From an uncultured Candidatus Peribacteria bacterium (GTDB taxonomy: Bacteria > Patescibacteriota > Gracilibacteria > UBA1369 > UBA12473), in the NCBI GenBank assembly GCA_964436935.1, contig CAYTES010000001.1:7066-71065 (forward strand): a stretch of 64,000 nt of DNA, written 5' to 3'. Positions 8,286 to 58,763 of this stretch are shown in pieces (position 1 is the first letter of the stretch; each line of letters begins with the position of its first letter). A program made the translations under genes and the position numbers. Under the pieces are notes generated by a model that saw nothing but the letters and a program-made list of their open reading frames with translations, was not told the origin of the DNA and ran no database searches.

Positions 8286-8313
8286 ATTATACGTTGGAAC
8301 AAAGGAAAATCAA
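8286..8313 (-). promoter_or_regulatory. candidate promoter of tRNA-Arg
   Basis: On the minus strand: TTGATT (8313-8308), 16-nt spacer, TATAAT (8291-8286). The -10 element ends 24 nt upstream of the mature tRNA 5' end. Confidence 0.45.
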
Positions 8314-8377
8314 GAGAAGTGAAATCGATCCATGTTTAAATTTTAGAAAAGCGTCTATGGGGATTTCATCTTCACAA

Positions 8378-8445
8378 GAAATTTTACTGTTTTCCAAGTG
8401 AGCCTGAGTCCGCGTACTGACGAACGAGGGAAATAGTAAAATTTC
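8378..8445 (+). repeat. conserved-core long hairpin element, copy R1
   Basis: Arms GAAATTTTACTGTTTTCC and GGGAAATAGTAAAATTTC pair at 18 positions, 2 of them G-T. The arms plus apex read TTTTCCAAGTGAGCCTGAGTCCGCG..CGAACGAGGGAAAT, which is shared with other copies. The element lies 19 nt downstream of the rpe stop. Confidence 0.7.
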
Positions 8446-8463
8446 TCGCCATAAAATAAAAAC

Positions 8464-10581: not shown

Positions 10582-10778
10582 TAAGGATCTCCCGCAAAAT
10601 ACAATTAACTTTGAAAAATCATAAATTTTCGGTCGCTTCAAGGCAAAGCGAGGAAGGCCGGGCCCCCTTGAAAGGGGCGCGATTAGATACGTTGACGAGC
10701 TCGGGCCCCCGAAGGGGAGCGGAAGCGGACGGAAAGAATGATTTTTTCATGGTAAGGGTATTTTGCGGGAGATCCTTA
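10582..10778 (+). repeat. ~200-nt extended hairpin element, copy R2
   Basis: Perfect 21-bp terminal inverted repeat: TAAGGATCTCCCGCAAAATAC (10582-10602) and its complement (10758-10778). A second imperfect arm pair lies at 10612-10639 and 10721-10749, with T-G pairs. The GC-rich apex holds two small hairpins (GCCCC-TTGAAA-GGGGC and CCCC-GAA-GGGG). Confidence 0.7.
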
Positions 10779-10827
10779 AGTGAGAAAACAACAGATTAAG
10801 AAGCTTAAACTTCCTCTTAGGCTCTTG

Positions 10828-10967
10828 AACGAAATAAGTTGATAAAATTGAAACGTAGACACCCAATCGGCTAGGCGCGAAGAGCAAGCATGCCAAAATA
10901 TGTAAGCCATGAGCAACGAAGTCCGTGAGGGATTGATACGTTTCCAAGGTCGTAAGTTATTTCGTTA
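10828..10967 (+). repeat. conserved-core hairpin element, divergent copy R5
   Basis: Outer arms AACGAAATAA(G)TT (10828-10840) and AA(G)TTATTTCGTT (10954-10966). Inner stem GAAACGTA/TACGTTTC. The core GAGCAAGCAT...CGTGAGGGATTG resembles the 5' and 3' boxes of R4b. The element ends 7 nt from the stop of the DUF192 gene. Confidence 0.5.
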
Positions 10968-10974
10968 CAGAGCC

Positions 10975-11496
10975 TTAGTCTTGTTGCTCTTGAAGCTGAA
11001 TCGTATCGCCAATAGAAATCCCTTCTGCATCCGCCATACCCCCGGTGATCTCAAGCGCGTATTTCACTTTTTCAACGGAGCTCGTGTATTCACAATTTTT
11101 CTGTTCAGGATCGACTTGAAAACAAGGAGGTAAATTTTGGGCGATGCTCACCACTTTAAATTTTGAATCCACAAAAAGAATATCCAAAGGAATAAGAGTA
11201 TCCTTCATCCAAAAAGTCTTCACCGTTTCATCTTGAAACACAAACCACATCCCCTGATTACTTCCTAAATGAGCCACATACTGAAGTCCACGCTTACGCT
11301 CTTCAAATGAATCGGCAATGACGACCTCAAAATCAACCACATCCCCATCCATCTGAACTACGGAAAGCGGCTTCAATTGATAATACTCATCCACCAAGTC
11401 GGAACCGCGAGAAGCAAAAGGATTTCCAAATATAAAAAATAATCCACCCCCCACAAGTAAACCCAAAATAAAAGTAACGGCAGGACGGAGAGACAT
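10975..11496 (-). CDS. DUF192 (COG1430) family protein
   Basis: N-terminal TM/signal, then RKRGLQYV...NQGMWFVF...FWMKDTLIPLDILFVD, typical of DUF192. Confidence 0.8.
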   Translation of the reverse strand: MSLRPAVTFILGLLVGGGLFFIFGNPFASRGSDLVDEYYQLKPLSVVQMDGDVVDFEVVIADSFEERKRGLQYVAHLGSNQGMWFVFQDETVKTFWMKDTLIPLDILFVDSKFKVVSIAQNLPPCFQVDPEQKNCEYTSSVEKVKYALEITGGMADAEGISIGDTIQLQEQQD

Positions 11497-36282: not shown

Positions 36283-36300
36283 ATTTTTAGATTTTAAAGA

Positions 36301-36720
36301 TTAAAAAGAAATGCCATCTTGTTCAAAAACTTCCTTAACCAACTCAATCAATCGGTCACGTTCCGCATCAATCCTCATATCCCCCTCGTTTCTATACACC
36401 GATTGATCAGGGTAAGGCACACCATCACCATCCAATGCCGGTTTTTGCTTTCTCAACAAAGGCTCTACAGCCCTCAAAACATCGTAACTGGACAATTCTC
36501 CGGATTTAACCTCATCAAGACACTCCGAAATTTCCGTCAACATATCCAATAGAAGCGCTTTTAAACCAGGCTTGGCAGAACGAACTTGCAGAGAAAACTG
36601 ATGCAAAGCATCCATCAAAAATTGATCGACCGCTAATTCATCGGAAACTTTCATTTTAATCTCCAATCCTGCACGAGTTTCTCCAGAAGCAATAGGAGTG
36701 GGAGTTGGTTGATCGACCAT
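36301..36720 (-). CDS. hypothetical protein
   Basis: 139-aa ORF. No motif recognised. Confidence 0.55.
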   Translation of the reverse strand: MVDQPTPTPIASGETRAGLEIKMKVSDELAVDQFLMDALHQFSLQVRSAKPGLKALLLDMLTEISECLDEVKSGELSSYDVLRAVEPLLRKQKPALDGDGVPYPDQSVYRNEGDMRIDAERDRLIELVKEVFEQDGISF

Positions 36721-36840
36721 AAACCACGATTTTTTAATGGTAAGCGTAAAATATTAAAATATAATTAACATTAAGTCAATAAATATTTGCCAAATTAAGA
36801 AATAGAGGATTAAAATAAAATCCATTCTTTAAAATGAACT

Positions 36841-37782: not shown

Positions 37783-37832
37783 GTGAGCGAAATATTCACT
37801 TATCGTATCTTTTCACAAATCCCACCTAATTT

Positions 37833-37919
37833 TTGAAATTTTTCCGAGCGAGCCTGAGTCCTCCTATTTTTCCATTTAAAGAAACCGCCATGTTCTCGAA
37901 CGAGCATTTCCAGAAAGGG
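37833..37919 (+). repeat. conserved-core element, degenerate copy R3a
   Basis: TTTTCCGAGCGAGCCTGAGTCC matches R1 at 20 of 22 positions. After a ~35-nt insert there is CGAACGAG. No clean outer stem was found. Confidence 0.5.
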
Positions 37920-37950
37920 CTATTTTATCATATTCTTCTTCCTATTCCAC

Positions 37951-38025
37951 CTGATTTTTTATATTTCTTGAGTGAGGGATTGAGTCCGCGAAACTCTCGC
38001 GAACGAAGGGAATGTAAAAAATCAG
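37951..38025 (+). repeat. conserved-core long hairpin element, copy R3b
   Basis: Arms CTGATTTTTTATATTTCTT and AGGGAATGTAAAAAATCAG pair at 19 positions, 3 of them T-G. The core reads TTGAGTGAGGGATTGAGTCCGCG..CGAACGAAGGGAAT. The 3' arm overlaps the frdA stop codon (38022-38024). Confidence 0.7.
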
Positions 38026-39725
38026 TATTTGCGCTCCTGCGGCTCCCACTTCGTCATCGTCACCGGCAAGTTCGACCAGCTCATTTTTCCATCCTTCATT
38101 TGAGCCAACTGATGGTGCAAAAACCGCTCATCCTCTCGATTAGGAAAATCAGTACGTACGTGACTACCACGACTCTCTTCACGCGCCACGGCAGCGGTCA
38201 AAAGACACTCGGACACATCCAACATGTGGCCCAACTCAAGCACCAAAATCCACTCCGTATTGAACACATGCCCATGATCCGACACCCCAATGTTGAGATA
38301 CCGCATTTTTAAATTCCGGATCTCTTCAATCCCTTTTTCCATGCGTGTACGATCCCTAATAATTCCTCCGGCCCGTTCCATGACATCATTCAAAATATCG
38401 CGCAAAACGGCTACTTTTTCATGTCCCGAAGCGGTTCGTAAAGCCTCCAACCGCTCTTCTTCTTCACGAATAGAATCATCGTCCACAGTCACGACTCCCT
38501 GACCCTGCACAAACGCAGCCGCCTCTTCTCCCGCCACTCGCCCAAAAACCAAACACTCGGAAAGGGAATTCGACCCCAAACGATTCGCCCCATTGATCGT
38601 CACGCACGCAGTTTCTCCGGCCGCATAAAGCGCCTTCAAGGACGTTTCTGCTTTTAAATTTGTATGAACTCCACCCATAAAATAATGCAGCACCGGTCGC
38701 ACCGGAATCGGCTCCTTCACCGGATCTACATTCTGATAATCAATCGAAATCTCCCGAATCAACGGCAAGCGCTCATTGATCAATTTTTCTCCCAAATGCC
38801 TCAAATCCAGATGGACACACGGTCCATACGGGGTATCAATTCCACGACCCGCCTCAATCTCAGAAACAATCGCGCGTGAAATCAAATCCCTAGGCCCCAA
38901 TTCCATTTTCGAAGGCATATAATCTTTCAAAAAACGATCTCCGGTTTTATTGATCAAATAGCCGCCTTCCCCACGGGCCGCCTCCGTAATCAAAATTCCG
39001 GTTCGCACCAAGCCCGTGGGATGAAATTGAACAAACTCCATGTCCTTCAACAGAGCTCCGGCCCGCAACGCCAAAGACATCCCATCCCCTGTTTTAATAT
39101 TTCCATTCGTGGTGAAACGATAGGTTCGTCCCGCCCCCCCGGTCGCCAAAATGATCGCCTTGCCCGAAAAGGCCACCGTTTCCCCTGTGCGTTGCTGAAT
39201 CGCCACCACCCCCGTCGCACGCTCACCCGTCATTAAAATTTTACTCACATACCACTCGTCATACCGCACAATTTGAGGATATTTCAGACTGCGCTCAAAC
39301 AGACTATGCAGCATATAAAAACCCGTTTTATCCGCCGCATACACCGTGCGCTTCACCGTCATACCACCAAAGGCCCTTACCGCTACCTGACCATCTTCTT
39401 CTCGACTCCACGGACACCCCCAATGTTCCAAATTGGCAATTTCCTTAGGCGCCTCTCGCACAAAAAACTCCACTGCATCTTGATCCGCTAAATAATCGCT
39501 CCCCTTGATCGTATCAAACGCATGAGAATCGAAGTCGTCATAATCCCGAAGCACTCCGGCCAAGCCCCCTTCCGCCGAAACCGTGTGACTGCGAATCGGA
39601 TAAACTTTGGAAATAAGCCCCACGGAAAGCTCAGGATTTTTCTCCACCGCCGCGATCGCCGCACGCAATCCGGCAGCCCCTCCTCCAATGACCAAAATAT
39701 CATGCTGATCGATGAGTTTCATCAA
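38022..39725 (-). CDS. frdA: fumarate reductase / succinate dehydrogenase flavoprotein subunit
   Basis: DILVIGGGAAGLRAA, RSHTVSAEGG (covalent-FAD His context), HPTG, ANRLGSNSL; 567 aa. Confidence 0.93.
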   Translation of the reverse strand: MMKLIDQHDILVIGGGAAGLRAAIAAVEKNPELSVGLISKVYPIRSHTVSAEGGLAGVLRDYDDFDSHAFDTIKGSDYLADQDAVEFFVREAPKEIANLEHWGCPWSREEDGQVAVRAFGGMTVKRTVYAADKTGFYMLHSLFERSLKYPQIVRYDEWYVSKILMTGERATGVVAIQQRTGETVAFSGKAIILATGGAGRTYRFTTNGNIKTGDGMSLALRAGALLKDMEFVQFHPTGLVRTGILITEAARGEGGYLINKTGDRFLKDYMPSKMELGPRDLISRAIVSEIEAGRGIDTPYGPCVHLDLRHLGEKLINERLPLIREISIDYQNVDPVKEPIPVRPVLHYFMGGVHTNLKAETSLKALYAAGETACVTINGANRLGSNSLSECLVFGRVAGEEAAAFVQGQGVVTVDDDSIREEEERLEALRTASGHEKVAVLRDILNDVMERAGGIIRDRTRMEKGIEEIRNLKMRYLNIGVSDHGHVFNTEWILVLELGHMLDVSECLLTAAVAREESRGSHVRTDFPNREDERFLHHQLAQMKDGKMSWSNLPVTMTKWEPQERKY

Positions 39726-39743
39726 AAAAGATCATAGCACAAA

Positions 39744-40256
39744 TCATCGAAATCCTTGAATTTGATCCAATCGAATCCCTAAGCTCTCCATACGTTGAGC
39801 CGCATCAATCAATAAGGGCGTCAAACGTGAATGAATAGAAAAATACAATAAATCAAACCCGGAAACAGCAGCAAATGCATCCGCTCCTTCGAAATCACGT
39901 ACATTGATCAATCGAATAACCTCATCACGAATAGGATCTTCAACAAAAACCATCACCTCATAAATAGGCTTCATTTTCACTAAAAAATTCTCATTTTCTT
40001 GCACAAATCGTTCCATTAATCCTGGAAATTTCTTTTCCAATTGTGAAAAATAACTCCAAGATTCATTAAAAGGCTGAAAGCCAAAAACCTCGGCAAAAAG
40101 ATTCCAAAAATTGTTGCGAAAACGAGGAGGTTTTTCAGCAGAAATAGATCCATGGGGATCAACACCCCATTCTCGCAAAAGCGCATGCGCCCGATCTACA
40201 ACGGGTTTCAAAACTTCAGGAATAGGATAGGAAGAAAACTCCTCGGGAAGCAACAT
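39744..40256 (-). CDS. hypothetical protein
   Basis: 170-aa ORF directly upstream of frdA on the same strand. Confidence 0.6.
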   Translation of the reverse strand: MLLPEEFSSYPIPEVLKPVVDRAHALLREWGVDPHGSISAEKPPRFRNNFWNLFAEVFGFQPFNESWSYFSQLEKKFPGLMERFVQENENFLVKMKPIYEVMVFVEDPIRDEVIRLINVRDFEGADAFAAVSGFDLLYFSIHSRLTPLLIDAAQRMESLGIRLDQIQGFR

Positions 40257-40294
40257 AGAAAAAATTCTAATCTAAAACCCGAATTTAAAGAAAT

Positions 40295-43200
40295 TTAGAA
40301 AATAGCTCGAATCAACTCAACTAAGCTGGCATACAAACCCTGTTTTTCAAAGGAAATTTCTTCCGAGGATTCAAACAGTTCATTGGTTTCTTTCCAGTCC
40401 TGAACCCGCTGAATGATGGTCGAGGTTTCCGCACGATTGAGGCCGTTATAAAGGTCGGCATTTCCCGTGTCTCCCTGTCCCTCAATAATTCCGGCGGCGT
40501 AGAGTGCCTCCGCAGCATGCCAATAGGCATCATCCGGAGCCACATCGGGGAAGTATCCTTCGAAAACAGTGGGAGGTTCCATGCCTTCCTTCTGTCCCAA
40601 TTCGAGCATCAATTGCATCATTTCCGCGCGATTCACCATTTGACTCAGATCGGAATAGGCAATGGAAAGATTCAATGCTTTGGCTTTATTTTCATACGGA
40701 GTCCACCACACCTCTCCTCCTTCTCCAGCGACTTCGTAATCAAAAGCGAACAACGCCATTTTCAAGACTTCGGCCCGTCTTGTGCCGTCACTGGGGCCAA
40801 AATTGTAGGTTCGATTGCCGTTTCCATCTTTGTATCCTCCCAAAATGCCTTCCTGGGCAGATTCGATCACATGACCGGCATACCAGTATTCTGCAGGAGA
40901 CGCATTGTAGGCATCATTAAAAATATACGGAACGTCATGAAACTCATACCCATACTCAAATTTAGACTGCTCCGCTTGCTCCAAAAGTTTTTGCAAATCA
41001 TCAATATAAGTTTGCAACTCAGCCTTAGAGGTTTCCTCATTGAGGGTATTGTTGATCGATTCCCATTGATCCGCGATTTCAGCGGCCAAATCCTCGTCAG
41101 GATAAGGCAGATTGGCAAACAATTCCTTAAACTCGGAAAGTGTTTCCAATTCTTGCGTGTTTTCATTCTCAATTTGTTCAAAATCCAGCGCCGTCACTTG
41201 TTCAAAAACAAGATTATTATTCTCCAACAACGCTTCACCTTGTGCTAAATTCTGAAAATTTTCCATCAGGCGATTGGTGAGTTTTTCCGTTAAATCGATC
41301 TCTAAAAACTTAACCAACTCTTCCATCACCGCCGCTTTAACCACGCGCACAATGTCTTCCAAAAGACTTTCCGTGATGCGGCTCACCAACTCATCCGCGA
41401 TATTTTGACCATATATTTGTTGCAAACGATTGCAGTTTCGGCCACAGTCTGGCCCGGATCCATAAAACTCATTTGAGTCATCAACCAAAATGGCGAACAT
41501 GGCCCAAACAGATTCCCATTCTCGATCCGTTAAAGTTAAACCGGATTGATGCCCGTTCACATAAAGAGAAATTTTTTCAATCTTCGGATCGATGAAGGAC
41601 GCCCATTTGTCCAATTGATTCCAAAAATGTTCCATAGATTTTTCAAGTTCATAAGGTTCACCATTAAAATCATCAAGCAAAGACTGCATGTCTTCTAACA
41701 TTTCTCTAGCATCAGGCATGACCTTAGAAATTTCGTTGAGAAAATTTTGATTCTTTTTATCCAATCGGCCATTTAAAACATCGACGGCAGCTTCAATAAC
41801 CTCAATTTCGTCTTGAAGGACAACCAGCTCTTCCTCGATCCATTGCGATTGAACGAGAGAGTTTTGCAATCGGTGAAGTGGCCCAAGGGCCTCCCACAAA
41901 AGACTGTTGTCTTGGCTATGAAAAGCAAAATCTTCACGGGTCCAGCCCAAATCGGCCCACATTTCATTCAATTCTTCGTCAAAATAGGAGCGTACCGTTT
42001 GACGTTCTTCGGAATCCGTCAGTTCATCAATCGTGCTAAAAGTAGGCATCTCCTCGATGCCGGATTCAAGCGCATCGCCAGAAATTAAAAACTCATCATA
42101 AAGTTGATAAAATTCATCCAGCCAATCTAAGGCATCCGTCAAAGCCCTCTCATCCTGGGATTCCAACTCAATATTCATGGCGTCCAAATGGACGAATAAC
42201 TTATTTTTCTCACGTTTCCATTCTAAAATATTGGTCACATTATCATAAAAGCTCAATTTTCCTTCGACGATATCCCGTTTCATTTGATAAACATCTGTTT
42301 TTCTCAAAATCAATACAGCGGCATCAAGATGATCCCACGTTAAATCTTTTTTATTTTTAAGATAAGTGAGCAGATCATTTTGAGCCTCAAGTTCGTTTGA
42401 AAACGCCTCCGACTCCTCTTGAACATAAAGCAAGAGCTCCTCCAAGGCAGCAATATCTTCCTCAAATTCACCCTTCACCTCATCGAGAAGTTCTGGCGAC
42501 AATCCTTCTTGCTCCAACCCCATCTCATCTTGTTCAACAAACTCGATCCGATCTTCAAAATCTTTAATTTTGCGTTCAATGCGTTTAGAGAATTGTCCAA
42601 AATATTTCAAATCCCGTTCCTTCCAGCGTAACCCTTCTTTCATCTCACTCAATTGTCGACCGGCCTCTTCGGGGTCGATAAGGTTACCATCATTTTGCTG
42701 ATCACAGGAGCCACTTTGAACGTTGCCTTTATCATCCTTACAGATTTCGCACCAGACTCCATCGCCATCCTCATCATTCCATTCACAGCGATTTTGATCG
42801 GGCTCTTCACAATACTGCGTGGTATAATTCCCTTTTTCATCGTAACAAGTTTTACACTCAAGACCCTGTCGGTCGACATAATAATCGCAGCGTCCTTGTT
42901 CAGAATCATCGCCATCATCCCAATCACCCTCTTGATCATCACAAGTATTTTTCAATACCGTCCCATCCGGCTTGGTGCAAGTTTCGCACCAAAAATAGCC
43001 ACCGGTATTTTCATACTCACAATGCGCATTGAGATCAAAATACTCCTCATTGGAATTATACGAATCATCATCAGCGCTATCTTGCCAACACGAACGATTG
43101 GTTACAGTTCCGTTGTTGTCATAACATTTCATGCACTGCAAACCATCCTGCCAAAAATAGTCACAAGAATTGGAACTCATGGATCCGCTTGAACTAGTGC

Positions 43201-45148
43201 TGGTCATCCAACACGAATCATTTTGTTTCACACCTTTATCGTCATAACACACGTTGCATTGCAAACCGTCGGCCTCATAACTTTCACATTGGGCAGAACC
43301 GTAGTAATTAGTTGTCGCGGTGCCATCGGCCGTGATGGTTGTCGTACCAACGATCGTACTGGTGTTGTTTGAAGAAATGGTACCACTGGTCGAACCTGTT
43401 CCCGAACCCGTATTGGTTGAAGTATTTGAAGTATTGTTGCTGGTGGTGGTTCCGCTGGTCGTGCTGGTTGACCCGGTTCCACTCGTAATTAAGGTGGTTC
43501 CCGTTGAAGTATTGTTGTTGGTGGTTCCCGTGTTGTTTGATCCCGTTGTGGCCGTACACGTATTTTTAATTTGCGTTCCATCTTGATAGGAACATTTTTG
43601 ACATTGAGTTCCATCGGAATTTTGCAAAAATTCACAATAAGCGTTTTTGGTGAAGTAATCATCGGGATATTCCGAGGCGTTGGAATAACACCATTCGGTA
43701 CGCAAATAACCCGAGGGGTCATAAAAGGAGGCGCACTCCATGTCGTTCGATTTTCTAAAATACACATTTTTGATGGTGTAACTGTAGCTGACGCTGCAAT
43801 AGGAACTTGATGTTTTTGAGCCCTGAGAACAGGTGGTGCACACCATGTCATTCACACTATTGTTCGTGACGCACTGTTGCGTTGAGGTTGTTGCTGAGGT
43901 TGAGCCCGTGGAGCCGGTAGTTCCACTGGAGGTTTCCGGTTCATACGCGTCACACATTTTCCCGATTCCATCCCCATCCGTATCTTTTTGATCGCTATTC
44001 GCGACTTCAATACAATTATCAGTATTATCCATCACTCCATCTTTATCCGTATCGGTGGTGGAAGATCCCGTAATAGTGACTAAAATGGAATTGCTATAGC
44101 CTAATCCACACTCCTCATTAGTACAGGTACGAATCATCCACGATCCGTTCATTTTAGGCGTTATCCCCGAAAGAGTTTGAATTCCGGTGGACGTTGTGGA
44201 CGTGAGTGTCGTGAGAGTAGTCACCGTACTTGCCGGAGAAGGACTGATAACCTGAATTTTAACATTGATCGGAACCCCGTTCGTGGGAGAGGCGCAGGTA
44301 TAAGTCAATTTAATACTTTCCGAAAAAGTATAGCTTGATTTGTCGGTAGCCAAATAAAATCCGGTGCAGGCCGGATAGGGAGTGGAATCACATTTGTCTC
44401 CTATTTTGTCACCATCGGTATCTTTTTGATCACTATTCGAGGCGTACATACAGTTATCAGTAGCATCCAAAATTCCATCGTAATCAAAATCCGCAGGGCA
44501 ATCCGTGGCACAAACCGTCGAATTTTCACCCGTTTGACAAATGTTATTTCCACAACTCGCCGTATTTTGGGTACTGACGCGATGCGCCGAAACCAAAGCC
44601 TGTTGCGCGGTCAAATCGCAAGCACCTTCATATTTAAATACAGAATAATCATGATCACTTCGACAATGATAGGTTGCCCCCAAATCGTCCACATACAGGC
44701 GCATATTGGTATTCACGTTACTTACCGCCGAAACATTGATATTGACCGACACATTTTTTCCCTCTTTACTCACTCCGGAAATGGTTAACGTTTGCGCACC
44801 AATCGCATCCGCGGCACCGATGGCAATGCCTCCGCTGCATGTATTGCGATTTTCCCATAATCCAGCGTCATTCAAATGACCGCATTCGGTATAGGGTGTT
44901 GGAAAATCTCCGGTCCAAATGGAAATTCCATAATTCAAATTACCCGGAGAATTGCCACCGGGATTGGTCGAAGAAACACTCGTGATTTTAGACAATTGCA
45001 AGAGTTGAACTCCTTCACTGCTGGCAATCACATCCGTTTTCAAAAAAGAACCATATGATCCACCCAATAAATCCCATCCGGTTAGGGTAGCCGCCACAAG
45101 TCCGGCAACCATTAAAAATTTAGGGTTCAATGAAGAAAAAAATTTCAC
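40295..45148 (-). CDS. giant secreted surface protein: TSP3-type Ca-binding repeats, four-Cys repeat array, coiled-coil region, C-terminal SLH domains
   Basis: The N-terminal hydrophobic signal is followed by these parts:
- DxDxDGxxDxxDNC...DQKDTDGDxIGxxCD twice (about 44387-44488 and 43949-44053)
- seven C-x9-11-C-x2-C-x11-12-C units
- T/S/G/N-rich linkers
- a long acidic helical region
- C-terminal FHDVP...GGYKDG...RAEVLKM and YFPDVA...GIIEG...RAETSTI (SLH-like, about 40403-40942). Confidence 0.85.
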   Translation of the reverse strand: MKFFSSLNPKFLMVAGLVAATLTGWDLLGGSYGSFLKTDVIASSEGVQLLQLSKITSVSSTNPGGNSPGNLNYGISIWTGDFPTPYTECGHLNDAGLWENRNTCSGGIAIGAADAIGAQTLTISGVSKEGKNVSVNINVSAVSNVNTNMRLYVDDLGATYHCRSDHDYSVFKYEGACDLTAQQALVSAHRVSTQNTASCGNNICQTGENSTVCATDCPADFDYDGILDATDNCMYASNSDQKDTDGDKIGDKCDSTPYPACTGFYLATDKSSYTFSESIKLTYTCASPTNGVPINVKIQVISPSPASTVTTLTTLTSTTSTGIQTLSGITPKMNGSWMIRTCTNEECGLGYSNSILVTITGSSTTDTDKDGVMDNTDNCIEVANSDQKDTDGDGIGKMCDAYEPETSSGTTGSTGSTSATTSTQQCVTNNSVNDMVCTTCSQGSKTSSSYCSVSYSYTIKNVYFRKSNDMECASFYDPSGYLRTEWCYSNASEYPDDYFTKNAYCEFLQNSDGTQCQKCSYQDGTQIKNTCTATTGSNNTGTTNNNTSTGTTLITSGTGSTSTTSGTTTSNNTSNTSTNTGSGTGSTSGTISSNNTSTIVGTTTITADGTATTNYYGSAQCESYEADGLQCNVCYDDKGVKQNDSCWMTSTSSSGSMSSNSCDYFWQDGLQCMKCYDNNGTVTNRSCWQDSADDDSYNSNEEYFDLNAHCEYENTGGYFWCETCTKPDGTVLKNTCDDQEGDWDDGDDSEQGRCDYYVDRQGLECKTCYDEKGNYTTQYCEEPDQNRCEWNDEDGDGVWCEICKDDKGNVQSGSCDQQNDGNLIDPEEAGRQLSEMKEGLRWKERDLKYFGQFSKRIERKIKDFEDRIEFVEQDEMGLEQEGLSPELLDEVKGEFEEDIAALEELLLYVQEESEAFSNELEAQNDLLTYLKNKKDLTWDHLDAAVLILRKTDVYQMKRDIVEGKLSFYDNVTNILEWKREKNKLFVHLDAMNIELESQDERALTDALDWLDEFYQLYDEFLISGDALESGIEEMPTFSTIDELTDSEERQTVRSYFDEELNEMWADLGWTREDFAFHSQDNSLLWEALGPLHRLQNSLVQSQWIEEELVVLQDEIEVIEAAVDVLNGRLDKKNQNFLNEISKVMPDAREMLEDMQSLLDDFNGEPYELEKSMEHFWNQLDKWASFIDPKIEKISLYVNGHQSGLTLTDREWESVWAMFAILVDDSNEFYGSGPDCGRNCNRLQQIYGQNIADELVSRITESLLEDIVRVVKAAVMEELVKFLEIDLTEKLTNRLMENFQNLAQGEALLENNNLVFEQVTALDFEQIENENTQELETLSEFKELFANLPYPDEDLAAEIADQWESINNTLNEETSKAELQTYIDDLQKLLEQAEQSKFEYGYEFHDVPYIFNDAYNASPAEYWYAGHVIESAQEGILGGYKDGNGNRTYNFGPSDGTRRAEVLKMALFAFDYEVAGEGGEVWWTPYENKAKALNLSIAYSDLSQMVNRAEMMQLMLELGQKEGMEPPTVFEGYFPDVAPDDAYWHAAEALYAAGIIEGQGDTGNADLYNGLNRAETSTIIQRVQDWKETNELFESSEEISFEKQGLYASLVELIRAIF

Positions 45149-45265
45149 GAGGTTGGATTTTAATTTTTATTTTTTGATGACCGAGATATTCCCAAGGCAT
45201 CATATTATTATAGTACTTTTTTAATTTTAAGTCAAATTTTTATGCCCCCAATTCCACCCCCCCAC

Positions 45266-45294
45266 TTGATTCAATTTTTAAAATAAGTTAAACT
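45266..45294 (+). promoter_or_regulatory. candidate promoter of the toxin-antitoxin pair
   Basis: TTGATT (45266-45271), 17-nt spacer, TAAACT (45289-45294), 22 nt upstream of the antitoxin ATG. Confidence 0.3.
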
Positions 45295-45316
45295 TAAGAT
45301 AATCTAATAAAAAAAT

Positions 45317-45586
45317 ATGATTGCCATTTCCACCAAAGAGCTACGTCTAAAAATGCCTTTTGTAAGGAGTGAACTCAAAAAAGGCACTACTTTCTTATTG
45401 ATTCACAAAAGCCAACTCATTGGCGAAATAAAACCGATTAAAAAAGATCAAAAATTGACTGAGATCGATGAAGAACAAAAGATGTGGGAACAAGCCGCGA
45501 TCGAAGATTTAGGAAACGAAGATTGGCTAACACAGGAGGAAATTAATTATTATCTCTCTTTACCCGACTATGACGAATCCATTTAA
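45317..45586 (+). CDS. type II antitoxin (Phd/YefM-like N-terminus)
   Basis: 89-aa ORF overlapping the MazF-like gene by 17 nt, with an acidic C-terminal half. Confidence 0.6.
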   Translation: MIAISTKELRLKMPFVRSELKKGTTFLLIHKSQLIGEIKPIKKDQKLTEIDEEQKMWEQAAIEDLGNEDWLTQEEINYYLSLPDYDESI

Positions 45587-45911
45587 ATTAGGTGAAATTT
45601 ATCTTGTAAGATTTGATCCCAGCGTAGGAAAAGAATACAAAAAAATCCGCCCCGGACTGATCGTTCAAAATGAAAATATAACTTCAAATTATATTACCGT
45701 GGTTCCGATAAGTTCAAAAATAGAACACTGCAAAATGCCGGATATACTCATTGAAAGAAATGGCAAAAATCGACTGGAATTTGATTCGAGAATTATTGTT
45801 CAGCAAATCTCTTCATTTGATCATAGTCGATTCATCAAAAAAATCGGTGCCGTTTCCAGCCCTGTCTTACGCCAAGTGAGAGGCTATTTGAGACGTCATT
45901 TCTTACTGTAA
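45570..45911 (+). CDS. mazF: PemK/MazF-family endoribonuclease toxin
   Basis: GEIYLVRFDPSVGKEYKKIRPGLIV...ITVVPISSK, typical of MazF/PemK; 113 aa. Confidence 0.88.
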   Translation: MTNPFKLGEIYLVRFDPSVGKEYKKIRPGLIVQNENITSNYITVVPISSKIEHCKMPDILIERNGKNRLEFDSRIIVQQISSFDHSRFIKKIGAVSSPVLRQVRGYLRRHFLL

Positions 45912-45929
45912 ATACTAGGAACAACTGAC

Positions 45930-48071
45930 TTAAAGCGTCAACCGCCGAACGGGAACTTTTTCGGGAACATGCATCGCTGATTTTTTCTTTAAAATTAAAG
46001 TATACTCGTCCATAGCCTCACCAAGTTGCCCCAATGAAAAAGAGTCTCGTCGACCGCCCGACGATTGATAATAAATCTCAATTTTTTTAGGACAAAACTT
46101 ACTCCCCAAAACAGATTTGGAAAGATCCAATTGAAGCTTAGGTCGAGACAAATTGGGCGTTTCAAGCTGTGCCAAAGAATCTAAAATAGCCCGCAAAATA
46201 GGTTTAAAGACAACTTGATTCCGACGATAAAATTGAGCCGGTCGATGAAGTTGAAGCATGGCGGTGAGATAAGGAGATCCATTTTTTTGACTTTGATAAG
46301 ACATCTGTTCCACGTCCGTAGCAATAAACTGTCCCCTTAATGCCGACATAGCCAAAGTCCGAAAAGAGGTCGCGATATCAAAAGCATTAGGAAGTTGAAG
46401 TGATTGCTCAAATTTTCTTACTAAATCATCAACAATACGCAACGAAACATCTGCCATAGTAGAACCAACATCCAAGGCATCTTTACCATCAAAAAGAGAA
46501 AACTTGGAAATTTCCTCCCTGAAAAGCCACGAATGAAAGGAATTTATGCCCGCATGCGCTCCAACCAAATAAGGATACGCATCAAATCGATTTTCAGCGA
46601 TGGGAGCACCTTCTTTAAATAAGCTCATTTTATAACGTTGCAAAAGATCAGAAACAACTGACAAATTTTCTACTCCATCTATGATTGAAAGCATTTCTTT
46701 ATTACTACTTGGCCCGGCCAATTCATGCCACCAACCGGAAACCTTGGGGTCTCGACGCGACAAAACATTCATGGCCACCTTTGCATTATCGGCCAAAGAC
46801 AAAGATTGCAACGTATTAATGGTACTTGGACTCACCGGCCCCGGAAAATCCAACATCACCACATCAAAGGGACCATATTCCTCAATCACTTCTTCCAAAG
46901 GCTCTGAAATTCCCCTAATTCCATAACGAGCCGCATTTTCCATAAATTCTTTCTGCACTCGCTTGCTGGATTCAAAACCATAAATCTTCCCCGGAGAAAA
47001 TCCCGCCTCCAAATAACCGGGAATTTCTAAACACTTTCGCCCTGGCAAACATGCAACCTTCAACTGTTTCCGCCCCTTACGCGGAACATGGTTCTCAATA
47101 AAACGCATCCATTCCCTCCGCCATAATTTCTTCATCTTCGTATCATAATCAAACACATCACCTTCACCTTCAAAAGATTCGATCACTTCAATTCGACCCG
47201 GAGTGGAATCATCAAGAATTTCAGAAGGTAAATTCACTTCCGGAAAATTATCCAAGACCATTTCAGGGGCCTGAGGTTCAACCTCAGAAGTCTCCACAAG
47301 CAAAACCTCCTCCGTAAATTCACCCCCTTCACCTTCAGGCAACGCAGACTCCTCATCAAGAACCTCGGAGTGACCATTGTTTTCACCATCCATAGCAATT
47401 TCTTCAGCTTCAACCCGACCACCAAACCCCTCCACCGCCTGAATCGCTTTTTCCTTTAAACTTCCAGGCTTAATCTTTAAACGAAAATCCCCATAAAAAT
47501 GAGCCAATATCGACTTGAACGCACGTGATTCCATTCCAAAAAACGGCGCAACCTGCTGAACAAAATCTCCACCAAACCCGGAAGGTGGCAAAGAGGTGAG
47601 CACGTAAACCCAACATCGAAACGCTTCATTGCGCACAAAACGACCATCGACCGATTCCGGCTGCCAAACTCGAATGAGACTCAATCGTCCGGCATCGGCA
47701 TCCGACCACAGAGCATATAAATTCTCAAGATCAACGGAATGTTCCGCACCATTCAAAGACAATTTTTCTTGAGCACTCCTCAACGCTTCCGTACCACTCA
47801 AGGGTAATTTTTTCTCAGCACCTCCAACACGGCCACTACCTACCCCTCGAGGCTTCTTTTCTTTTTTAACACCACCCTTCGACAAAAGATCTCGCGCCAA
47901 TTCTTCAACACTTTCTTCCGCTCCATCCAAAGAGTCCGACCGCCACGCCTTGGCCGCACTCACTTGCCCTTCCGAAAGACAAAACAAAGTCTGACATTGA
48001 GCTCTAAAATGTTCCCAATTCCCGGCTCGCTTCGCGTACTCTTGCCTAATAAAAGCCCCTTCAAGCGGCAA
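45930..48071 (-). CDS. hypothetical 713-aa protein with central acidic linker
   Basis: Long ORF. It has an acidic stretch EVLDEESALPEGEGGEFTEE.... A beta-alpha-beta-like segment LKVACLPGRKCLEIPGYL..IYGFESS..FDVVMLDFPGP is vaguely Rossmann/methyltransferase-like but lacks a GxG motif. Confidence 0.65.
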   Translation of the reverse strand: MPLEGAFIRQEYAKRAGNWEHFRAQCQTLFCLSEGQVSAAKAWRSDSLDGAEESVEELARDLLSKGGVKKEKKPRGVGSGRVGGAEKKLPLSGTEALRSAQEKLSLNGAEHSVDLENLYALWSDADAGRLSLIRVWQPESVDGRFVRNEAFRCWVYVLTSLPPSGFGGDFVQQVAPFFGMESRAFKSILAHFYGDFRLKIKPGSLKEKAIQAVEGFGGRVEAEEIAMDGENNGHSEVLDEESALPEGEGGEFTEEVLLVETSEVEPQAPEMVLDNFPEVNLPSEILDDSTPGRIEVIESFEGEGDVFDYDTKMKKLWRREWMRFIENHVPRKGRKQLKVACLPGRKCLEIPGYLEAGFSPGKIYGFESSKRVQKEFMENAARYGIRGISEPLEEVIEEYGPFDVVMLDFPGPVSPSTINTLQSLSLADNAKVAMNVLSRRDPKVSGWWHELAGPSSNKEMLSIIDGVENLSVVSDLLQRYKMSLFKEGAPIAENRFDAYPYLVGAHAGINSFHSWLFREEISKFSLFDGKDALDVGSTMADVSLRIVDDLVRKFEQSLQLPNAFDIATSFRTLAMSALRGQFIATDVEQMSYQSQKNGSPYLTAMLQLHRPAQFYRRNQVVFKPILRAILDSLAQLETPNLSRPKLQLDLSKSVLGSKFCPKKIEIYYQSSGGRRDSFSLGQLGEAMDEYTLILKKKSAMHVPEKVPVRRLTL

Positions 48072-48783
48072 CCAACACTTGAGCCTTAAACCCGGAAACC
48101 GCTTGTAATAATTCTAAACTTTTCCATAAATCCGCCCCCGCCAATTCTGAAATTTCTTTATCTAAAGAACGAATATCATCTCTTGAATCAGTCAAAATTT
48201 CTTTATGATCCTCCGTCCACTCTTGTTCGGAAAGACGCAATGTTTGAACAAATTCAGCCTGATGAGCACACCGTTCATTCACAAGATCATCCAAAACACG
48301 ATGCTTAAACGCAATCAAGCGTTGAGACAAAGGATAAAAAGTTTCCAAAAGCGCCAATATCAAATCCCGACAACGAGCAGGAGTTTCAAATTCTTGAAGC
48401 CGAGTATATGCCCAAGTCAAAATAGAATTTCTCGCTCCTCGTTTTTCCACCGCAGGAGGCGCTTGTTCGAATAATATTCCCACGGCACGATCGTAATCTT
48501 TTTCCGTTAAGTTTGAGGTATAAATATTGGCTTGTTTGGCAATATTCCATAAAAATTCTTTCAATTCGCCTCCTCCATTAAGTGGCGGCGGCGATTCCGC
48601 TTGAAATCGCAACATCTCGATCGCCTCTGCTGAACTTCCCTCCATAACGATTCGAACATAGTGGGCTACCTTATCGGAAATCCCACCAACCCCTTGCCCG
48701 GAAGAAACACTTTGAATCCGCTCATAAAGAGAACGAGCAAGAGAAGGATCGGCCAGAAGCTCGGGAATATTTGGATGGATCAC
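48061..48783 (-). CDS. hypothetical protein
   Basis: 240-aa ORF overlapping the downstream 713-aa gene by 11 nt (likely co-translated operon). Confidence 0.6.
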   Translation of the reverse strand: MIHPNIPELLADPSLARSLYERIQSVSSGQGVGGISDKVAHYVRIVMEGSSAEAIEMLRFQAESPPPLNGGGELKEFLWNIAKQANIYTSNLTEKDYDRAVGILFEQAPPAVEKRGARNSILTWAYTRLQEFETPARCRDLILALLETFYPLSQRLIAFKHRVLDDLVNERCAHQAEFVQTLRLSEQEWTEDHKEILTDSRDDIRSLDKEISELAGADLWKSLELLQAVSGFKAQVLVAA

Positions 48784-48878
48784 AGCAACAAAGGGTTTAA
48801 ATAAAAGGTTATAATTTAAAACTAAATATTTATTTAGTCAACAAAAAGGCCCCGCTAAATTGGGTAAAAGCTTAACTT

Positions 48879-48944
48879 GGCAGTTCGGATTGTTTTTTGA
48901 GGGAGCATTTTATTTTGCGACCGAGAGAAATGATCCGAACTGCC
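48879..48944 (+). repeat. conserved-core hairpin element, copy R4a
   Basis: Perfect 12-bp arms GGCAGTTCGGAT and ATCCGAACTGCC flank TGTTTTTTGAGGGAGCATTTTATTTTGCGACCGAGAGAAATG. Confidence 0.75.
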
Positions 48945-49024
48945 CCAAACTCCCCTAGCCCAAACCAAACCTCCTCTCTTCCCCTCACCCCTGCTTAAAT
49001 TTCAGAAAAGCTTATATCAGGACT

Positions 49025-49098
49025 TTGAATTGTTTTCCGAGTAAGCATTTTGTTCTGCGCACGAGGGAAATGATTAAAAGTCCTGATAACATAGAAGT
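49025..49098 (+). repeat. conserved-core hairpin element, copy R4b
   Basis: Perfect 12-bp arms TATCAGGACTTT and AAAGTCCTGATA flank GAATTGTTTTCCGAGTAAGCATTTTGTTCTGCGCACGAGGGAAATGATTA. The element ends 4 nt from the stop of the M16 peptidase gene. Confidence 0.75.
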
Positions 49099-49102
49099 TT
49101 CT

Positions 49103-50368
49103 CTAAAATTTAAGCAATTTTGCAAACCGCTCTTTCTCCTCCCAAGGCCCAATACCAGCGAGATAAAGGCGATCTTCCTGGAACAGGTCTCGAGCGATGC
49201 ACTCCACCTCACTCACCGTCACCACATCCACTTTGGCCGCAATCTCCTCCTCTGTCAACACCTCCCCATACAGCACCTCATGCTTGGCCAAAAGATGAGC
49301 CATCTCTTCAGAATCCTCCAACTTCAACACCATTTTCCCCTTCAAATAGTCTTTGGCTTTCTGCAACTCCGCTTCGGTAATACCCTCATCTCTCAACAGT
49401 TTATACTGCTCCACAATCGCCTCCACCGCCATATCCACACGATTCAGATCCACACCCGCCCGAGTCGATAAAATCCCAGTATCGGTATAATCATCCGTCG
49501 AGGTCTGAATATAATACGAAAGGCCTTTGGCTTCGCGCACGCCCAAAAACATCCGCGAACTCATATTGCCGCCCAAAATAATAGCGAGCAATTTAACCGC
49601 AAAATGCCCTCCGGAATGTTCGGCGTACGCCGGAAATCCGATCACGACATGCCCCTGCTCCGTTTTCTTATTTTGTAAAATCACGCGATCGGTCGCCTCA
49701 TTGGATTTCAACCCCAACCATTCAAAGGTGGTCTCTTTCTTTTCCATGGGAAAAAGTTTTTCCACTTCTTTCACCACCTCCTCATGTTCCACATCCCCCG
49801 CCACCGCAATCACAATATTATCCGAACGGTAGAGTTCATTTTGATAGGCCAAGAAATCATCCCGCGTCACTCCCATGATGACGTCCTTCAAACCAATCTG
49901 ATCCCATCCCAACGGCTGATCTCCAAAAATCAATTTTTCAAAATCCCAACCCACCTGATACATCGGCGTGTCCTGATACATATTGTACTCTTCCATGATC
50001 ACGCCTCGCTCTTTATCGATCTCCACAGGATCATGTTTAGAGTGCAGCAACATGTCAGACAAAACATCCATCGCAATCCCGCGATGTTGAGACGCCACTT
50101 TCACATAATAACCCACATACTCTTTCCCGGTAAACGCATTGAACTCTCCTCCTACACTATCAATAGCTTCGGACACGGACTTGGTATCCGGATACTTGTC
50201 GGCGCCTTTAAAAAACATGTGCTCTAGAAAGTGCGAAATGCCACGAATTTTCTGGGTTTCACAACGAGATCCAGCTTTAACCAAAATCAAAACCGTCACC
50301 GCCTTAGTGCTTTCCAATTTTTGAGTGACCACACGGAGTCCGTTAGGGAGAATCGTTTTATGATGCAT
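49103..50368 (-). CDS. M16-family zinc peptidase
   Basis: Inverted zincin motif HFLEH in GISHFLEHMFFKG; 421 aa. Confidence 0.9.
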   Translation of the reverse strand: MHHKTILPNGLRVVTQKLESTKAVTVLILVKAGSRCETQKIRGISHFLEHMFFKGADKYPDTKSVSEAIDSVGGEFNAFTGKEYVGYYVKVASQHRGIAMDVLSDMLLHSKHDPVEIDKERGVIMEEYNMYQDTPMYQVGWDFEKLIFGDQPLGWDQIGLKDVIMGVTRDDFLAYQNELYRSDNIVIAVAGDVEHEEVVKEVEKLFPMEKKETTFEWLGLKSNEATDRVILQNKKTEQGHVVIGFPAYAEHSGGHFAVKLLAIILGGNMSSRMFLGVREAKGLSYYIQTSTDDYTDTGILSTRAGVDLNRVDMAVEAIVEQYKLLRDEGITEAELQKAKDYLKGKMVLKLEDSEEMAHLLAKHEVLYGEVLTEEEIAAKVDVVTVSEVECIARDLFQEDRLYLAGIGPWEEKERFAKLLKF

Positions 50369-58562: not shown

Positions 58563-58763
58563 ATGGCGAACGAAGAAAATAGCAATGCAGGACTTACCGC
58601 ATTGATCGTTATTTTAGTAGGGGTCATCATCATAGGGGCCTTCTATTTCCTCAAACCACAGCCCAGCGGAAACGATGAAAATAACGATGACGTGAACATC
58701 ACCATCCCGGATACGGAAGAAGACATTTTACCGAATACGGAAAATGAAAATACATATAGATAA
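58563..58763 (+). CDS. small single-pass membrane protein
   Basis: 66 aa with one clear TM helix LTALIVILVGVIIIGAFYF and an acidic tail. Confidence 0.4.
   Translation: MANEENSNAGLTALIVILVGVIIIGAFYFLKPQPSGNDENNDDVNITIPDTEEDILPNTENENTYR

What the first reader, a model, noticed from the sequence alone, without database searches (positions are those of the whole stretch)
48879..49098. Tandem pair of hairpin elements with a conserved apical core and copy-specific perfect arms (defines a repeat family seen at four other loci)
R4a (48879-48944) and R4b (49025-49098) share a ~45-nt core: TTGTTTTYYGAGKRAGCATTTTRTTYTGCGMMCGAGRGAAATGAT. Each core is embraced by a different perfect 12-bp inverted repeat (GGCAGTTCGGAT vs TATCAGGACTTT).

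The same 5' box (TTTYCNAGNGAGC) and 3' box (CGARGGAAAT) recur at 8378-8445, 37833-37919 and 37951-38025, and in divergent form at 10582-10778 and 10828-10967. All copies are in the same orientation.

Arms that differ in sequence but stay complementary around a conserved core suggest either a structured RNA family or a small element that inserts into pre-existing hairpin loops. I cannot match it to any named repeat or ncRNA class.
Basis: seen in the sequence. Interest (0 to 1): 0.65.

Follow-up and report, generated by a model that had tools for sequence, protein, structure and literature searches.

The report
Lineage-specific hairpin repeat family in Peregrinibacteria
A small groundwater bacterium of the candidate phylum Peregrinibacteria carries an undescribed family of 66-75-base hairpin repeats after gene ends, each with a shared core and its own perfectly matched outer stem; it resembles the small palindromic repeats of other bacteria more than any new kind of system.

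Summary
The repeat is real. Four intact copies lie on the + strand: 8377-8446, 37951-38025, 48879-48944 and 49015-49088. One decayed copy lies at 37833-37919.

Each intact copy folds as a rod:
- an outer stem of 11-16 bp that is copy-specific and almost entirely Watson-Crick;
- a conserved 8-bp stem rich in G-U pairs;
- two 2x2 purine loops, mostly GA/GA, separated by 2 bp;
- a short or long apex.

On the four-copy alignment 98.9% of cells pair and 14 pairs show changes on both sides. All 12 wobble pairs read as wobbles only on the + strand.

No Rfam family matches. Strict-pattern scans of genome, metagenome and viral collections gave only chance-level or no hits. About 123 kb from relatives with 70-78% protein identity holds no copy.

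Its two "divergent" copies (10582-10778 and 10816-10978) are not supported as members. 10582-10778 has terminal inverted repeats like those of a second hairpin family seen in this genome and in one relative; 10816-10978 only resembles them.

Every hairpin locus abuts the stop codon of a minus-strand gene and coincides with a synteny break against relatives.

Best reading (about 0.45): a lineage-restricted, non-autonomous palindromic repeat of the REP/MITE kind. A structured + strand RNA is the main rival. Function is untested.

The parts
8377..8446 (+). R1: intact hairpin copy with the long apex (CCUGAGUCCGCG...). It lies 18 nt after the stop codon of rpe (8464-9111, minus strand).
   Evidence: Covariance model 81.9 bits. 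Fold -24.5 kcal/mol, z = -3.9. Inverted repeat I6.
8333..8359 (+). Conserved 5' flank box of R1 (TGTTTAAATTTTAGAAAAGCGTCTATG). It is the partner of an imperfect outer inverted repeat whose other half lies about 8455-8480.
   Evidence: 22/27 identical to the complement of the R4b 3' flank. Motif search.
37833..37919 (+). R3a: decayed copy. Both boxes are present (TTTTTCCGAGCGAGCCTGAGTCC ... CGAACGAGC) but the interior is replaced and there is no hairpin.
   Evidence: z = +1.4; (21/22 identity to R1 over the 5' box).
37951..38025 (+). R3b: intact copy with the long apex. Its 3' arm overlaps the stop codon of the sdhA-like gene (38022-39725, minus strand).
   Evidence: Covariance model 79.5 bits. 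Fold -28.8 kcal/mol. Inverted repeat I12.
48850..48878 (+). 5' flank box of R4a (CCCCGCTAAATTGGGTAAAAGCTTAACTT), homologous to the R4b flank.
   Evidence: R4a/R4b local alignment, score 55, z = 19.
48879..48944 (+). R4a: intact copy with the short apex (GCAUUUUAUUUUGC).
   Evidence: Covariance model 78.8 bits. Fold -40.3 kcal/mol, z = -10.4 on +, against -25.9 on -.
48945..48991 (.). C-rich spacer between the tandem copies. It reads as G-runs on the minus strand.
   Evidence: Read directly from the sequence.
48992..49116 (+). R4b with its outer imperfect inverted repeat (arms 48992-49017 and 49091-49116, 26 nt, 85% complementary). The right arm overlaps the last codons of the M16 peptidase gene (49103-50368, minus strand).
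   Evidence: Inverted repeat I4. Fold of 48985-49120: -49.6 kcal/mol, z = -7.4.
49015..49088 (+). R4b: intact copy with the short apex.
   Evidence: Covariance model 73.8 bits. Fold -29.7 kcal/mol, z = -5.3. Inverted repeat I3.
48813..48841 (-). Sigma-70-like promoter (TTGACT-17-TAAATT) for the next minus-strand gene. It places R4b and R4a between a stop codon and a promoter.
8286..8313 (-). Sigma-70-like promoter (TTGATT-16-TATAAT) upstream of tRNA-Arg (8185-8261, minus strand). It places R1 between a stop codon and a promoter.
10582..10778 (+). A long hairpin with a 21-bp perfect terminal inverted repeat. It is not a demonstrated member of the R family; it belongs to a second hairpin family.
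10816..10978 (+). A second long hairpin. It is not a demonstrated member of the R family. Its arms resemble the second family's terminal repeat, and its 3' end overlaps the DUF192 stop codon.
   Evidence: The arm resemblance is read by eye.

Best explanation
The elements are a lineage-restricted family of small, non-coding palindromic repeats, in the same broad class as REP, BIME, MITE or Correia-type repeats. They have multiplied in this Peregrinibacteria genome (bin ACD28) by local duplication and by spread to new intergenic junctions.

What is shown:
- The rod-like fold.
- A conserved inner module: an 8-bp G-U-rich stem plus two tandem purine 2x2 loops.
- Copy-specific outer arms that are perfectly Watson-Crick.
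- Placement immediately after stop codons and before the next promoter.
- Coincidence with synteny breaks.
- Absence from the relatives sampled.

What is inferred:
- The inner module is the part under sequence- and strand-specific selection. It may be the recognition site for whatever protein mobilises or binds the element, read as + strand RNA or as + strand single-stranded DNA.
- The outer arms are kept as perfect DNA palindromes by self-templated correction (hairpin or template-switch repair), so they drift fast but always in pairs.
- Once in place and transcribed, the hairpins act as intercistronic or 3'-end stem-loops that insulate or stabilise the neighbouring transcripts.
For: Copies and structure:
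- Four intact copies and one decayed copy in 64 kb.
- 98.9% of cells pair, 14 pairs changed on both sides, and 0 of 500 shuffles reach the observed values. RNAalifold predicts the same fold independently.

Outer arms behave like DNA palindromes:
- 49 Watson-Crick cells, 1 mismatch and 0 wobbles, against 12 wobbles in 32 cells of the inner stem (p = 3e-6).
- R4a and R4b are a tandem duplication of about 136 nt that includes the flank.
- Their arms differ at 5-6 of 12 positions against 9 of 42 in the core. Five arm positions changed on both arms with pairing kept, two of them G-C/C-G swaps; a sixth change leaves one G.A mismatch in R4b.

All four hairpin loci are synteny breaks against relatives:
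- R4b/R4a open a 9.4-kb insertion of ORFans plus a PemK toxin pair between the M16 peptidase gene and sdhA.
- R3b/R3a open a roughly 2-kb insertion between sdhA and sdhB.
- The two long hairpins replace a 139-aa gene, with no remnant by tblastn.
- R1 follows rpe where relatives have AlaDH.

Distribution:
- Zero model hits in about 123 kb of relatives, although about 7 would be expected at the window's density.
- Nothing real in the genome, metagenome, viral, plasmid or phage collections.

Related hairpins in the clade:
- L034 and L035 carry, downstream of rpe, a hairpin with a shared core but different perfect arms.
- A second hairpin family with conserved terminal repeats occurs in L036 and in this genome. 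One of its copies carries a clean 55-nt nested insertion.
- A contig from another sample leaves the window sequence inside the R4a core, which suggests a further copy or a recombinant.
Against: - No transposase, HUH/RAYT nuclease, integrase or reverse transcriptase was found among the ORFs scanned. Only about 71 kb of the genome could be seen.
- No target-site duplication flanks the hairpins (read from the sequence).
- Only two copies have clear conserved termini.
- G-U pairs and tandem G.A loops are classic RNA features and would equally fit a purely RNA-level function.
- If movement went through single-stranded DNA on the lagging-strand template, the folding strand would be expected to be the G-rich minus strand. 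It is the C-rich + strand.
- With only four copies, the statistics on strand and on arm evolution are modest.
Confidence: 0.45

Rival explanations
1. The elements are a family of structured RNAs expressed from the + strand. They could act in cis as antisense or 3'-end elements, or as small RNAs. The conserved G-U stem and the two tandem G.A loops would be a protein-binding site. The long basal duplex of about 20 bp would be needed only as a helix, for example as an RNase III substrate.
For: - All 12 wobble cells are G-U on + and would be A.C on -. Six column pairs against none (p = 0.03).
- The internal loops are purine-purine on + and pyrimidine-pyrimidine on -.
- All six intact hairpins are 4.5-15 kcal/mol more stable on +.
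- The 2-bp helix between the loops covaries: GU/AC in three copies, GG/CC in R4a.
- R3a and R3b lie in sense orientation in the 3' region of the + strand 313-aa gene.
Against: - No sigma-70-like + strand promoter was found upstream of R1, R3 or R4, and no U-tract follows the hairpins on either strand.
- The outer arms have no G-U pairs at all, which is unusual for a helix selected only as RNA.
- One copy has decayed.
- The family is absent from relatives and sits at synteny breaks, which is typical of selfish repeats rather than conserved RNA genes.
- No Rfam family matches.
Confidence: 0.28
2. The conserved core of about 50 nt is itself a tiny mobile module that integrates at the centre of pre-existing palindromes or hairpins. 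The copy-specific arms would then be host-derived.
For: - The arms are perfect, unique and of similar length (11-12 bp in three copies).
- In the second hairpin family of L036, one copy differs from its paralogue by a clean 55-nt insertion of two mini-hairpins near the apex.
- GC-rich mini-hairpin modules are shared between different host hairpins and between genomes.
- Perfect 13-bp palindromes with little or no loop exist in relatives.
Against: - In R1 and R4b the variable arms lie between a conserved outer repeat and the conserved core.
- The R4a and R4b arms are 7/12 identical in register within a tandem duplication. They diverged in place.
- The arms do not resemble the clade's canonical terminators, which have a GC stem with outer A and T runs.
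- No empty hairpin was found at orthologous sites in relatives.
Confidence: 0.15
3. The hairpins are unconventional, U-tract-less transcription terminators or processing and stabilising hairpins of the upstream minus-strand genes. They would have evolved in place, and the conserved core would be a large loop on the mRNA strand.
For: - Every locus starts within 18 nt of, or overlaps, the stop codon of a minus-strand gene.
- For R1 and R4 the hairpins are followed by a good minus-strand promoter for the next gene.
- No canonical terminator is present there.
- The L034 hairpin downstream of rpe has its wobbles on the mRNA strand (read).
Against: - Wobbles and purine loops favour the opposite strand for this family.
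- The genome uses ordinary intrinsic terminators elsewhere, for example about 23970.
- In-place evolution does not explain a shared 45-nt core at four unrelated loci.
Confidence: 0.1

Closest known systems
REP/BIME elements (repetitive extragenic palindromes mobilised by RAYT/TnpA-REP)
   Same: - Short non-coding imperfect palindromes in intergenic DNA, often just after stop codons and sometimes in clusters.
- The hairpin has strand-specific mismatches.
- Lineage-specific families.
   Different: - These elements are 66-75 nt (about 125 nt or more with the outer repeat where one is present), against 20-40 nt.
- No conserved GTAG-type 5' tetranucleotide.
- The arms differ between copies, whereas REP stems are the conserved part.
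- No RAYT gene was seen in the accessible sequence.
MITEs and Correia/ERIC-type elements
   Same: - Small non-autonomous repeats that fold as long hairpins when transcribed.
- They sit at gene junctions, can carry regulatory signals, and are associated with rearrangements.
   Different: - No target-site duplication.
- Conserved termini are evident only in R1 and R4b.
- The stem segment next to the core is copy-specific.
- No parent insertion sequence is known.
Subterminal hairpins of IS200/IS605 and related palindrome-associated elements
   Same: An imperfect hairpin on one strand, with non-Watson-Crick features, as the likely recognition module. All copies share one orientation within a replichore.
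   Different: - No TnpA or TnpB gene nearby.
- The folding strand is the C-rich strand, not the strand expected to be exposed on the lagging-strand template.
- No conserved cleavage tetra- or pentanucleotide was identified.
RNase III processing hairpins of phage T7 and bacterial operons
   Same: A duplex of about 20 bp interrupted by internal loops, placed between cistrons.
   Different: The better-folding strand is antisense to the adjacent genes at three of the four loci. No processing data exist.
Hairpins of related Peregrinibacteria found here (downstream of rpe in L034 and L035; the second family with terminal repeats in L036 and in this genome)
   Same: - The same architecture: a perfect outer stem and a conserved interior.
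- The same kind of site, directly after a stop codon.
- The same clade.
   Different: - Different core sequences.
- The covariance model and alignment statistics do not link them to the R family.
- The second family has conserved, not copy-specific, terminal repeats.

Membership tests
Any Rfam 15 RNA family | Match to a curated covariance model at its gathering score | tested here: not met
   The whole window at gathering score gives only a tRNA. E-value scans of the loci give only hairpin-shaped, sub-threshold microRNA and snoRNA matches at 13-31 bits, against cut-offs of 35-111.
REP/BIME | Short (20-40 nt) imperfect palindrome whose stem sequence is conserved among copies | tested here: not met
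   The elements are 66-75 nt and the outer stem is copy-specific.
REP/BIME | Conserved GT[AG]G tetranucleotide at the 5' base of the hairpin | tested here: not met
   The 5' ends read GGCAG, TATCAG, AGAAAT and CTGATT. No shared tetranucleotide.
REP/BIME | Cognate RAYT (Y1 HUH transposase, PF01797) in the genome | tested here: inconclusive
   None among the window ORFs scanned with Pfam. Only about 71 kb of the genome was accessible.
MITE | Terminal inverted repeats conserved among copies | tested here: inconclusive
   An outer imperfect inverted repeat with conserved sequence flanks R4b and R1. R4a has only the 5' box and R3b has none.
MITE | Target-site duplication flanking each copy | tested here: not met
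   No direct repeats at the hairpin boundaries of R1, R3b, R4a or R4b (read).
MITE | Related autonomous insertion sequence sharing the ends | tested here: inconclusive
   No transposase in the window or in the fetched loci of this genome. The rest of the genome was not available.
Intrinsic (Rho-independent) terminator | GC-rich stem with a short loop, followed directly by a U-tract | tested here: not met
   The terminator scan finds none at the R loci on either strand. The flanking sequence has no T-run within 2 nt of the stem.
Integron attC site | Conserved R''/R' boxes (RYYYAAC ... GTTRRRY) at the ends and an integron integrase nearby | tested here: not met
   The ends do not carry these boxes (read). 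No integrase among the scanned ORFs.
Structured RNA with tandem sheared G.A motifs (k-turn-like protein-binding site) | Non-canonical G.A pairs formed in the folded RNA and bound by a partner protein | not testable with these tools
   The sequence has GA/GA 2x2 loops in 7 of 8 loop positions of the four copies. Their geometry and any binding need experiments.

The most novel reading that the evidence does not exclude
The 12-bp stem lies between conserved basal and apical modules, is hypervariable, and is always perfectly complementary. It could be a copy-specific "barcode". One reading is that the hairpins are precursor duplexes processed (for example by RNase III) into copy-specific small guide RNAs. 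The other is that they represent a new kind of mobile hairpin that regenerates its own stem by self-templated synthesis at each move, with no terminal repeats, target duplication or linked transposase.
Probability: 0.07. Interest if true: 0.85.

Novelty: new variant of a known kind. Interest (0 to 1): 0.45.

Why it matters
- Bacteria of the candidate phyla radiation have small, streamlined genomes. My literature searches found no description of repeats of this kind in them. Here at least three hairpin-repeat families appear in one clade, placed exactly at operon breaks and gene replacements. Such elements may take part in, or mark, genome rearrangement in these organisms.
- A stem that changes faster than its surroundings yet stays perfectly paired, including through G-C/C-G swaps, is a clean natural case for studying how palindromes are maintained. 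The choice is between self-templated repair and selection on RNA.
- For annotation, the elements explain long "empty" intergenic regions. They may also explain some contig ends in assemblies of this organism.

Tried and rejected
Searches that found nothing:
- Strict core pattern in GTDB species genomes (9 hits), JGI metagenomes (13 hits) and IMG/VR (0 hits). On inspection the hits lack the flanking arms, come from unrelated taxa or from one unrelated locus repeated in many samples, and are about as many as chance predicts.
- blastn of the R4 locus against plasmids and phages: no match.

Ideas tested and dropped:
- Targets of the arms. The 12-mers of each arm do not recur in the window beyond chance, so there is no sign of a guide-target relation within 64 kb.
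- A remnant of the 139-aa gene under the two long hairpins: none by tblastn.
- Membership of the long hairpins and of the hairpin at L038 16458-16571 in the R family: under 5 bits with the model.
- A coding reading: no conserved small ORF across the copies (read from the sequence).
- Function of the ORFans next to the hairpins (313 aa, 240 aa, 713 aa and others): no hit in Pfam, NCBIfam or PHROGs for any of them, and none in PDB sequences for the two searched there, the 313-aa and 240-aa ORFs.
- The candidate 3'-box hit at 58566-58580 lies inside an apparent small ORF with no 5' box or arms and was rejected.

Attempts that fell short:
- Reaching more of the genome through the A2M-like protein failed because the exact protein was not returned. 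The sigma-factor look-up added only about 6 kb.
- Literature searches found no description of such repeats in Peregrinibacteria or other candidate phyla radiation bacteria.

Full report
**Observation**

The sequence at 48600-49400 contains two hairpins.
- R4a is at 48879-48944, with arms GGCAGTTCGGAT / ATCCGAACTGCC.
- R4b is at 49015-49088, with arms TATCAGGACTTT / AAAGTCCTGATA.
- Both enclose the shared core TTGTTTTYYGAGKRAGCATTTTRTTYTGCGMMCGAGRGAAATGAT.

Two further intact copies lie at 8377-8446 (R1) and 37951-38025 (R3b). The copy at 37833-37919 (R3a) keeps both boxes but has lost the fold.

A covariance model built from the four intact copies, run over the whole window with filters off, recovers exactly these four. 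They score 74-82 bits on the + strand and 18-27 bits on the - strand, and nothing else exceeds 16 bits. The 3' box is over-represented against shuffles: 8 matches against 2.5 +/- 1.6.

**Structure**

The four copies align in register. From the base upward each has:
- an outer stem of 11-16 bp that is copy-specific;
- a conserved 8-bp stem, UGUUUUCC / GGGAAAUR;
- a 2x2 loop (GA/GA; AA/GA in R1);
- 2 bp (GU/AC, or GG/CC in R4a);
- a second 2x2 loop (GA/GA; AA/GC in R4b);
- an apex that is short in R4a and R4b (GCAUUUURUUYUGC) or long in R1, R3b and R3a (containing UGAGUCC).

On this alignment 98.9% of cells form standard pairs. Fourteen pairs have changes on both sides. No shuffle in 500 reaches the observed values, and sliding the partners drops pairing to 41-55%. 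RNAalifold predicts the same structure on its own.

**Strand**
- All 12 wobble cells are G-U on + and would be A.C on -. They occupy six column pairs, against none for the other strand (binomial p = 0.03).
- The internal loops are purine-purine on +.
- All four intact R copies and both long hairpins at 10582-10978 fold 4.5-15 kcal/mol better on +.

The folding strand is therefore +, as RNA or as single-stranded DNA.

**The outer arms behave differently from the inner stem**
- They have 49 Watson-Crick cells, 1 mismatch and no wobble. The inner stem has 12 wobbles in 32 cells (Fisher p = 3e-6).
- R4a and R4b are a tandem duplication of about 136 nt that includes about 30 nt of 5' flank (local alignment z = 19).
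- Their arms are 7/12 identical in register. Five positions changed on both arms with pairing kept, two of them G-C/C-G swaps that have no wobble intermediate; a sixth change leaves one G.A mismatch in R4b.
- The arms have diverged at 5-6 of 12 positions and the core at only 9 of 42.

This looks like palindrome maintenance at the DNA level, through self-templated correction, with sequence constraint on the core.

In R4b and R1 the hairpin is further enclosed by an imperfect outer inverted repeat of conserved sequence, TGYTTAAATTTYAGARAA.... The variable arms therefore lie between two conserved segments.

**Context**

The organism is a Peregrinibacteria bin. The proteins are named ACD_28C..., and the contigs are LCJI01000019, AMFJ01 and Rifle ANAN16 scaffold_851.

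Each hairpin locus begins at or within 18 nt of the stop codon of a minus-strand gene: rpe, an sdhA-like gene, an M16 peptidase and DUF192. For R1 and R4, a good minus-strand promoter for the next gene follows. No canonical terminator is present at these loci, although the genome has ordinary ones elsewhere.

Relatives with 70-78% protein identity have these genes tightly packed. Their gene orders are M16-sdhA-sdhB...NDK, and HPPK-tkt-DUF192-139aa-prs-rpiB-rpe-AlaDH. In the window every hairpin locus is a break in that order:
- R4b/R4a open a 9.4-kb insertion of ORFans, a PemK toxin pair and a 1617-aa surface protein.
- R3b/R3a open a roughly 2-kb insertion between sdhA and sdhB.
- The two long hairpins (433 nt) replace the 139-aa gene with no remnant.
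- R1 follows rpe where relatives have AlaDH; here a tRNA-Arg gene follows.

No transposase, integrase, HUH nuclease or reverse transcriptase was found among the scanned ORFs.

**Distribution**
- Rfam gives nothing.
- Strict-pattern scans of GTDB genomes, JGI metagenomes and IMG/VR give only chance-like hits or none.
- Plasmid and phage collections give no match.
- The model finds no copy in about 123 kb from eight loci of relatives. About 7 would be expected at the window's density.
- About 6 kb of additional sequence from this genome adds none.
- A contig from another sample follows the window through R4b and half of R4a, then departs inside the R4a core into unrelated sequence. That hints at a further copy, a recombinant or a repeat-induced misassembly.

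**The two "divergent" copies**

The elements at 10582-10778 and 10816-10978 are strong hairpins. They score under 5 bits with the model and show no significant local similarity to the R family.

10582-10778 instead shares terminal inverted repeats and GC-rich mini-hairpin modules with other elements:
- a hairpin just beyond the window (L038 16458-16571);
- two copies flanking DUF192 in a relative (L036 1543-1726 and 2192-2413).

The repeat consensus is GGAASCTCTGAAAAATAC. The two L036 copies are about 92% identical apart from a clean 55-nt insertion of two mini-hairpins. Separately, L034 and L035 carry a hairpin downstream of rpe with about 70% conserved core but unrelated perfect arms; L033 lacks it.

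Hairpin repeats with perfect outer stems are therefore a recurring feature of this clade, and the R family is one lineage-specific member.

**Interpretation**

The best-supported reading (0.45) is a lineage-restricted, non-autonomous palindromic repeat of the REP/MITE kind.
- Its inner imperfect hairpin is the selected, strand-specific module.
- Its outer arms are maintained as DNA palindromes.
- It ends up at new gene junctions, where it probably serves as an intercistronic or 3'-end stem-loop.

The main rival (0.28) is a + strand structured RNA with a protein-binding tandem-G.A core. The wobble and loop evidence fits it well. The following argue against it:
- no promoter or terminator signals;
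- wobble-free arms;
- a decayed copy;
- absence from relatives;
- association with synteny breaks.

Nested insertion is real in a sister family, though. An origin in place as terminators (0.10) does not explain a shared core at unrelated loci and contradicts the strand evidence.

**Comparison with known families**

The family fails the defining tests for Rfam families, REP (size, conserved stem, GTAG), classic MITEs (target duplication), intrinsic terminators and attC sites. The tests that need the whole genome, namely a RAYT gene or a parent insertion sequence, are inconclusive.

**Verdict**

This is a real, apparently undescribed hairpin repeat: a new variant of a known kind. Its arm-evolution pattern is interesting and its function is untested.

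Noticed in passing
window 10582-10778 and 10816-10978; L038 16458-16571 (about window coordinate 66050-66163, beyond the right end); L036 1543-1726 and 2192-2413: A second hairpin-element family with conserved terminal inverted repeats of about 19-21 bp (GGAASCTCTGAAAAATAC). Copies share GC-rich mini-hairpin modules (CGGGCCCNCGAAGGGGAG; AGCCCCGCAWTSCGGGG). In L036 two copies flank DUF192 on both sides. One equals the other plus a clean 55-nt nested insertion.
   Followed up: partly
L034 6656-6746 and L035 6696-6797: Downstream of rpe in two relatives there is a hairpin with unrelated perfect 10-12-bp arms around a core that is about 70% conserved (TTGACAYGYTC.CTGARATTWAACCT..AAATGTG). A close relative, L033, lacks it. 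The architecture is the same as in the finding, but the core is different.
   Followed up: partly
L004 positions about 2741-2823, corresponding to window 48893 leftwards: A contig from another sample matches the window from the M16 stop through R4b and the 3' half of R4a, then switches inside the R4a core to unrelated sequence. This could be another copy elsewhere, a recombinant or a repeat-induced misassembly.
   Followed up: partly
window 39726-49102 and about 36126-38021: Two insertions relative to the M16-sdhA-sdhB operon of a relative (L028). The first is 9.4 kb with ORFans, a PemK/antitoxin pair (45317-45911) and a 1617-aa SLH/TSP3 protein. The second is about 2 kb with a 313-aa and a 139-aa ORFan.
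   Followed up: partly
window 10542-10974: A 139/140-aa hypothetical gene conserved between DUF192 and prs in five relatives is absent here. Two long hairpins of almost the same total length replace it. tblastn finds no remnant.
   Followed up: yes
window 60223 to beyond 64000: An A2M-like 1844-aa ORF runs off the right end and contains a Hint/intein-like insert (GGCFIAGT ... VHN; Pfam PT-HINT and Vint hits on the full protein).
   Followed up: no
window 48945-48991: The spacer between R4a and R4b is strongly C-rich on +. On the minus strand it reads as several GGGG/GGG runs with G-quadruplex potential.
   Followed up: no
window about 11538: By my coordinate mapping from the record ranges, one end of ENA scaffold_851 falls at about window 11538, some 560 nt from the long hairpins at 10582-10978. 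Repeat-related assembly breaks are a possibility only.
   Followed up: no
window 35097-36125: The sdhB-like ORF, as listed mechanically, is 342 aa, but its Fer2_3 domain starts at residue 97. The true start is probably about 90 codons downstream, so the intergenic region is longer than it appears.
   Followed up: no
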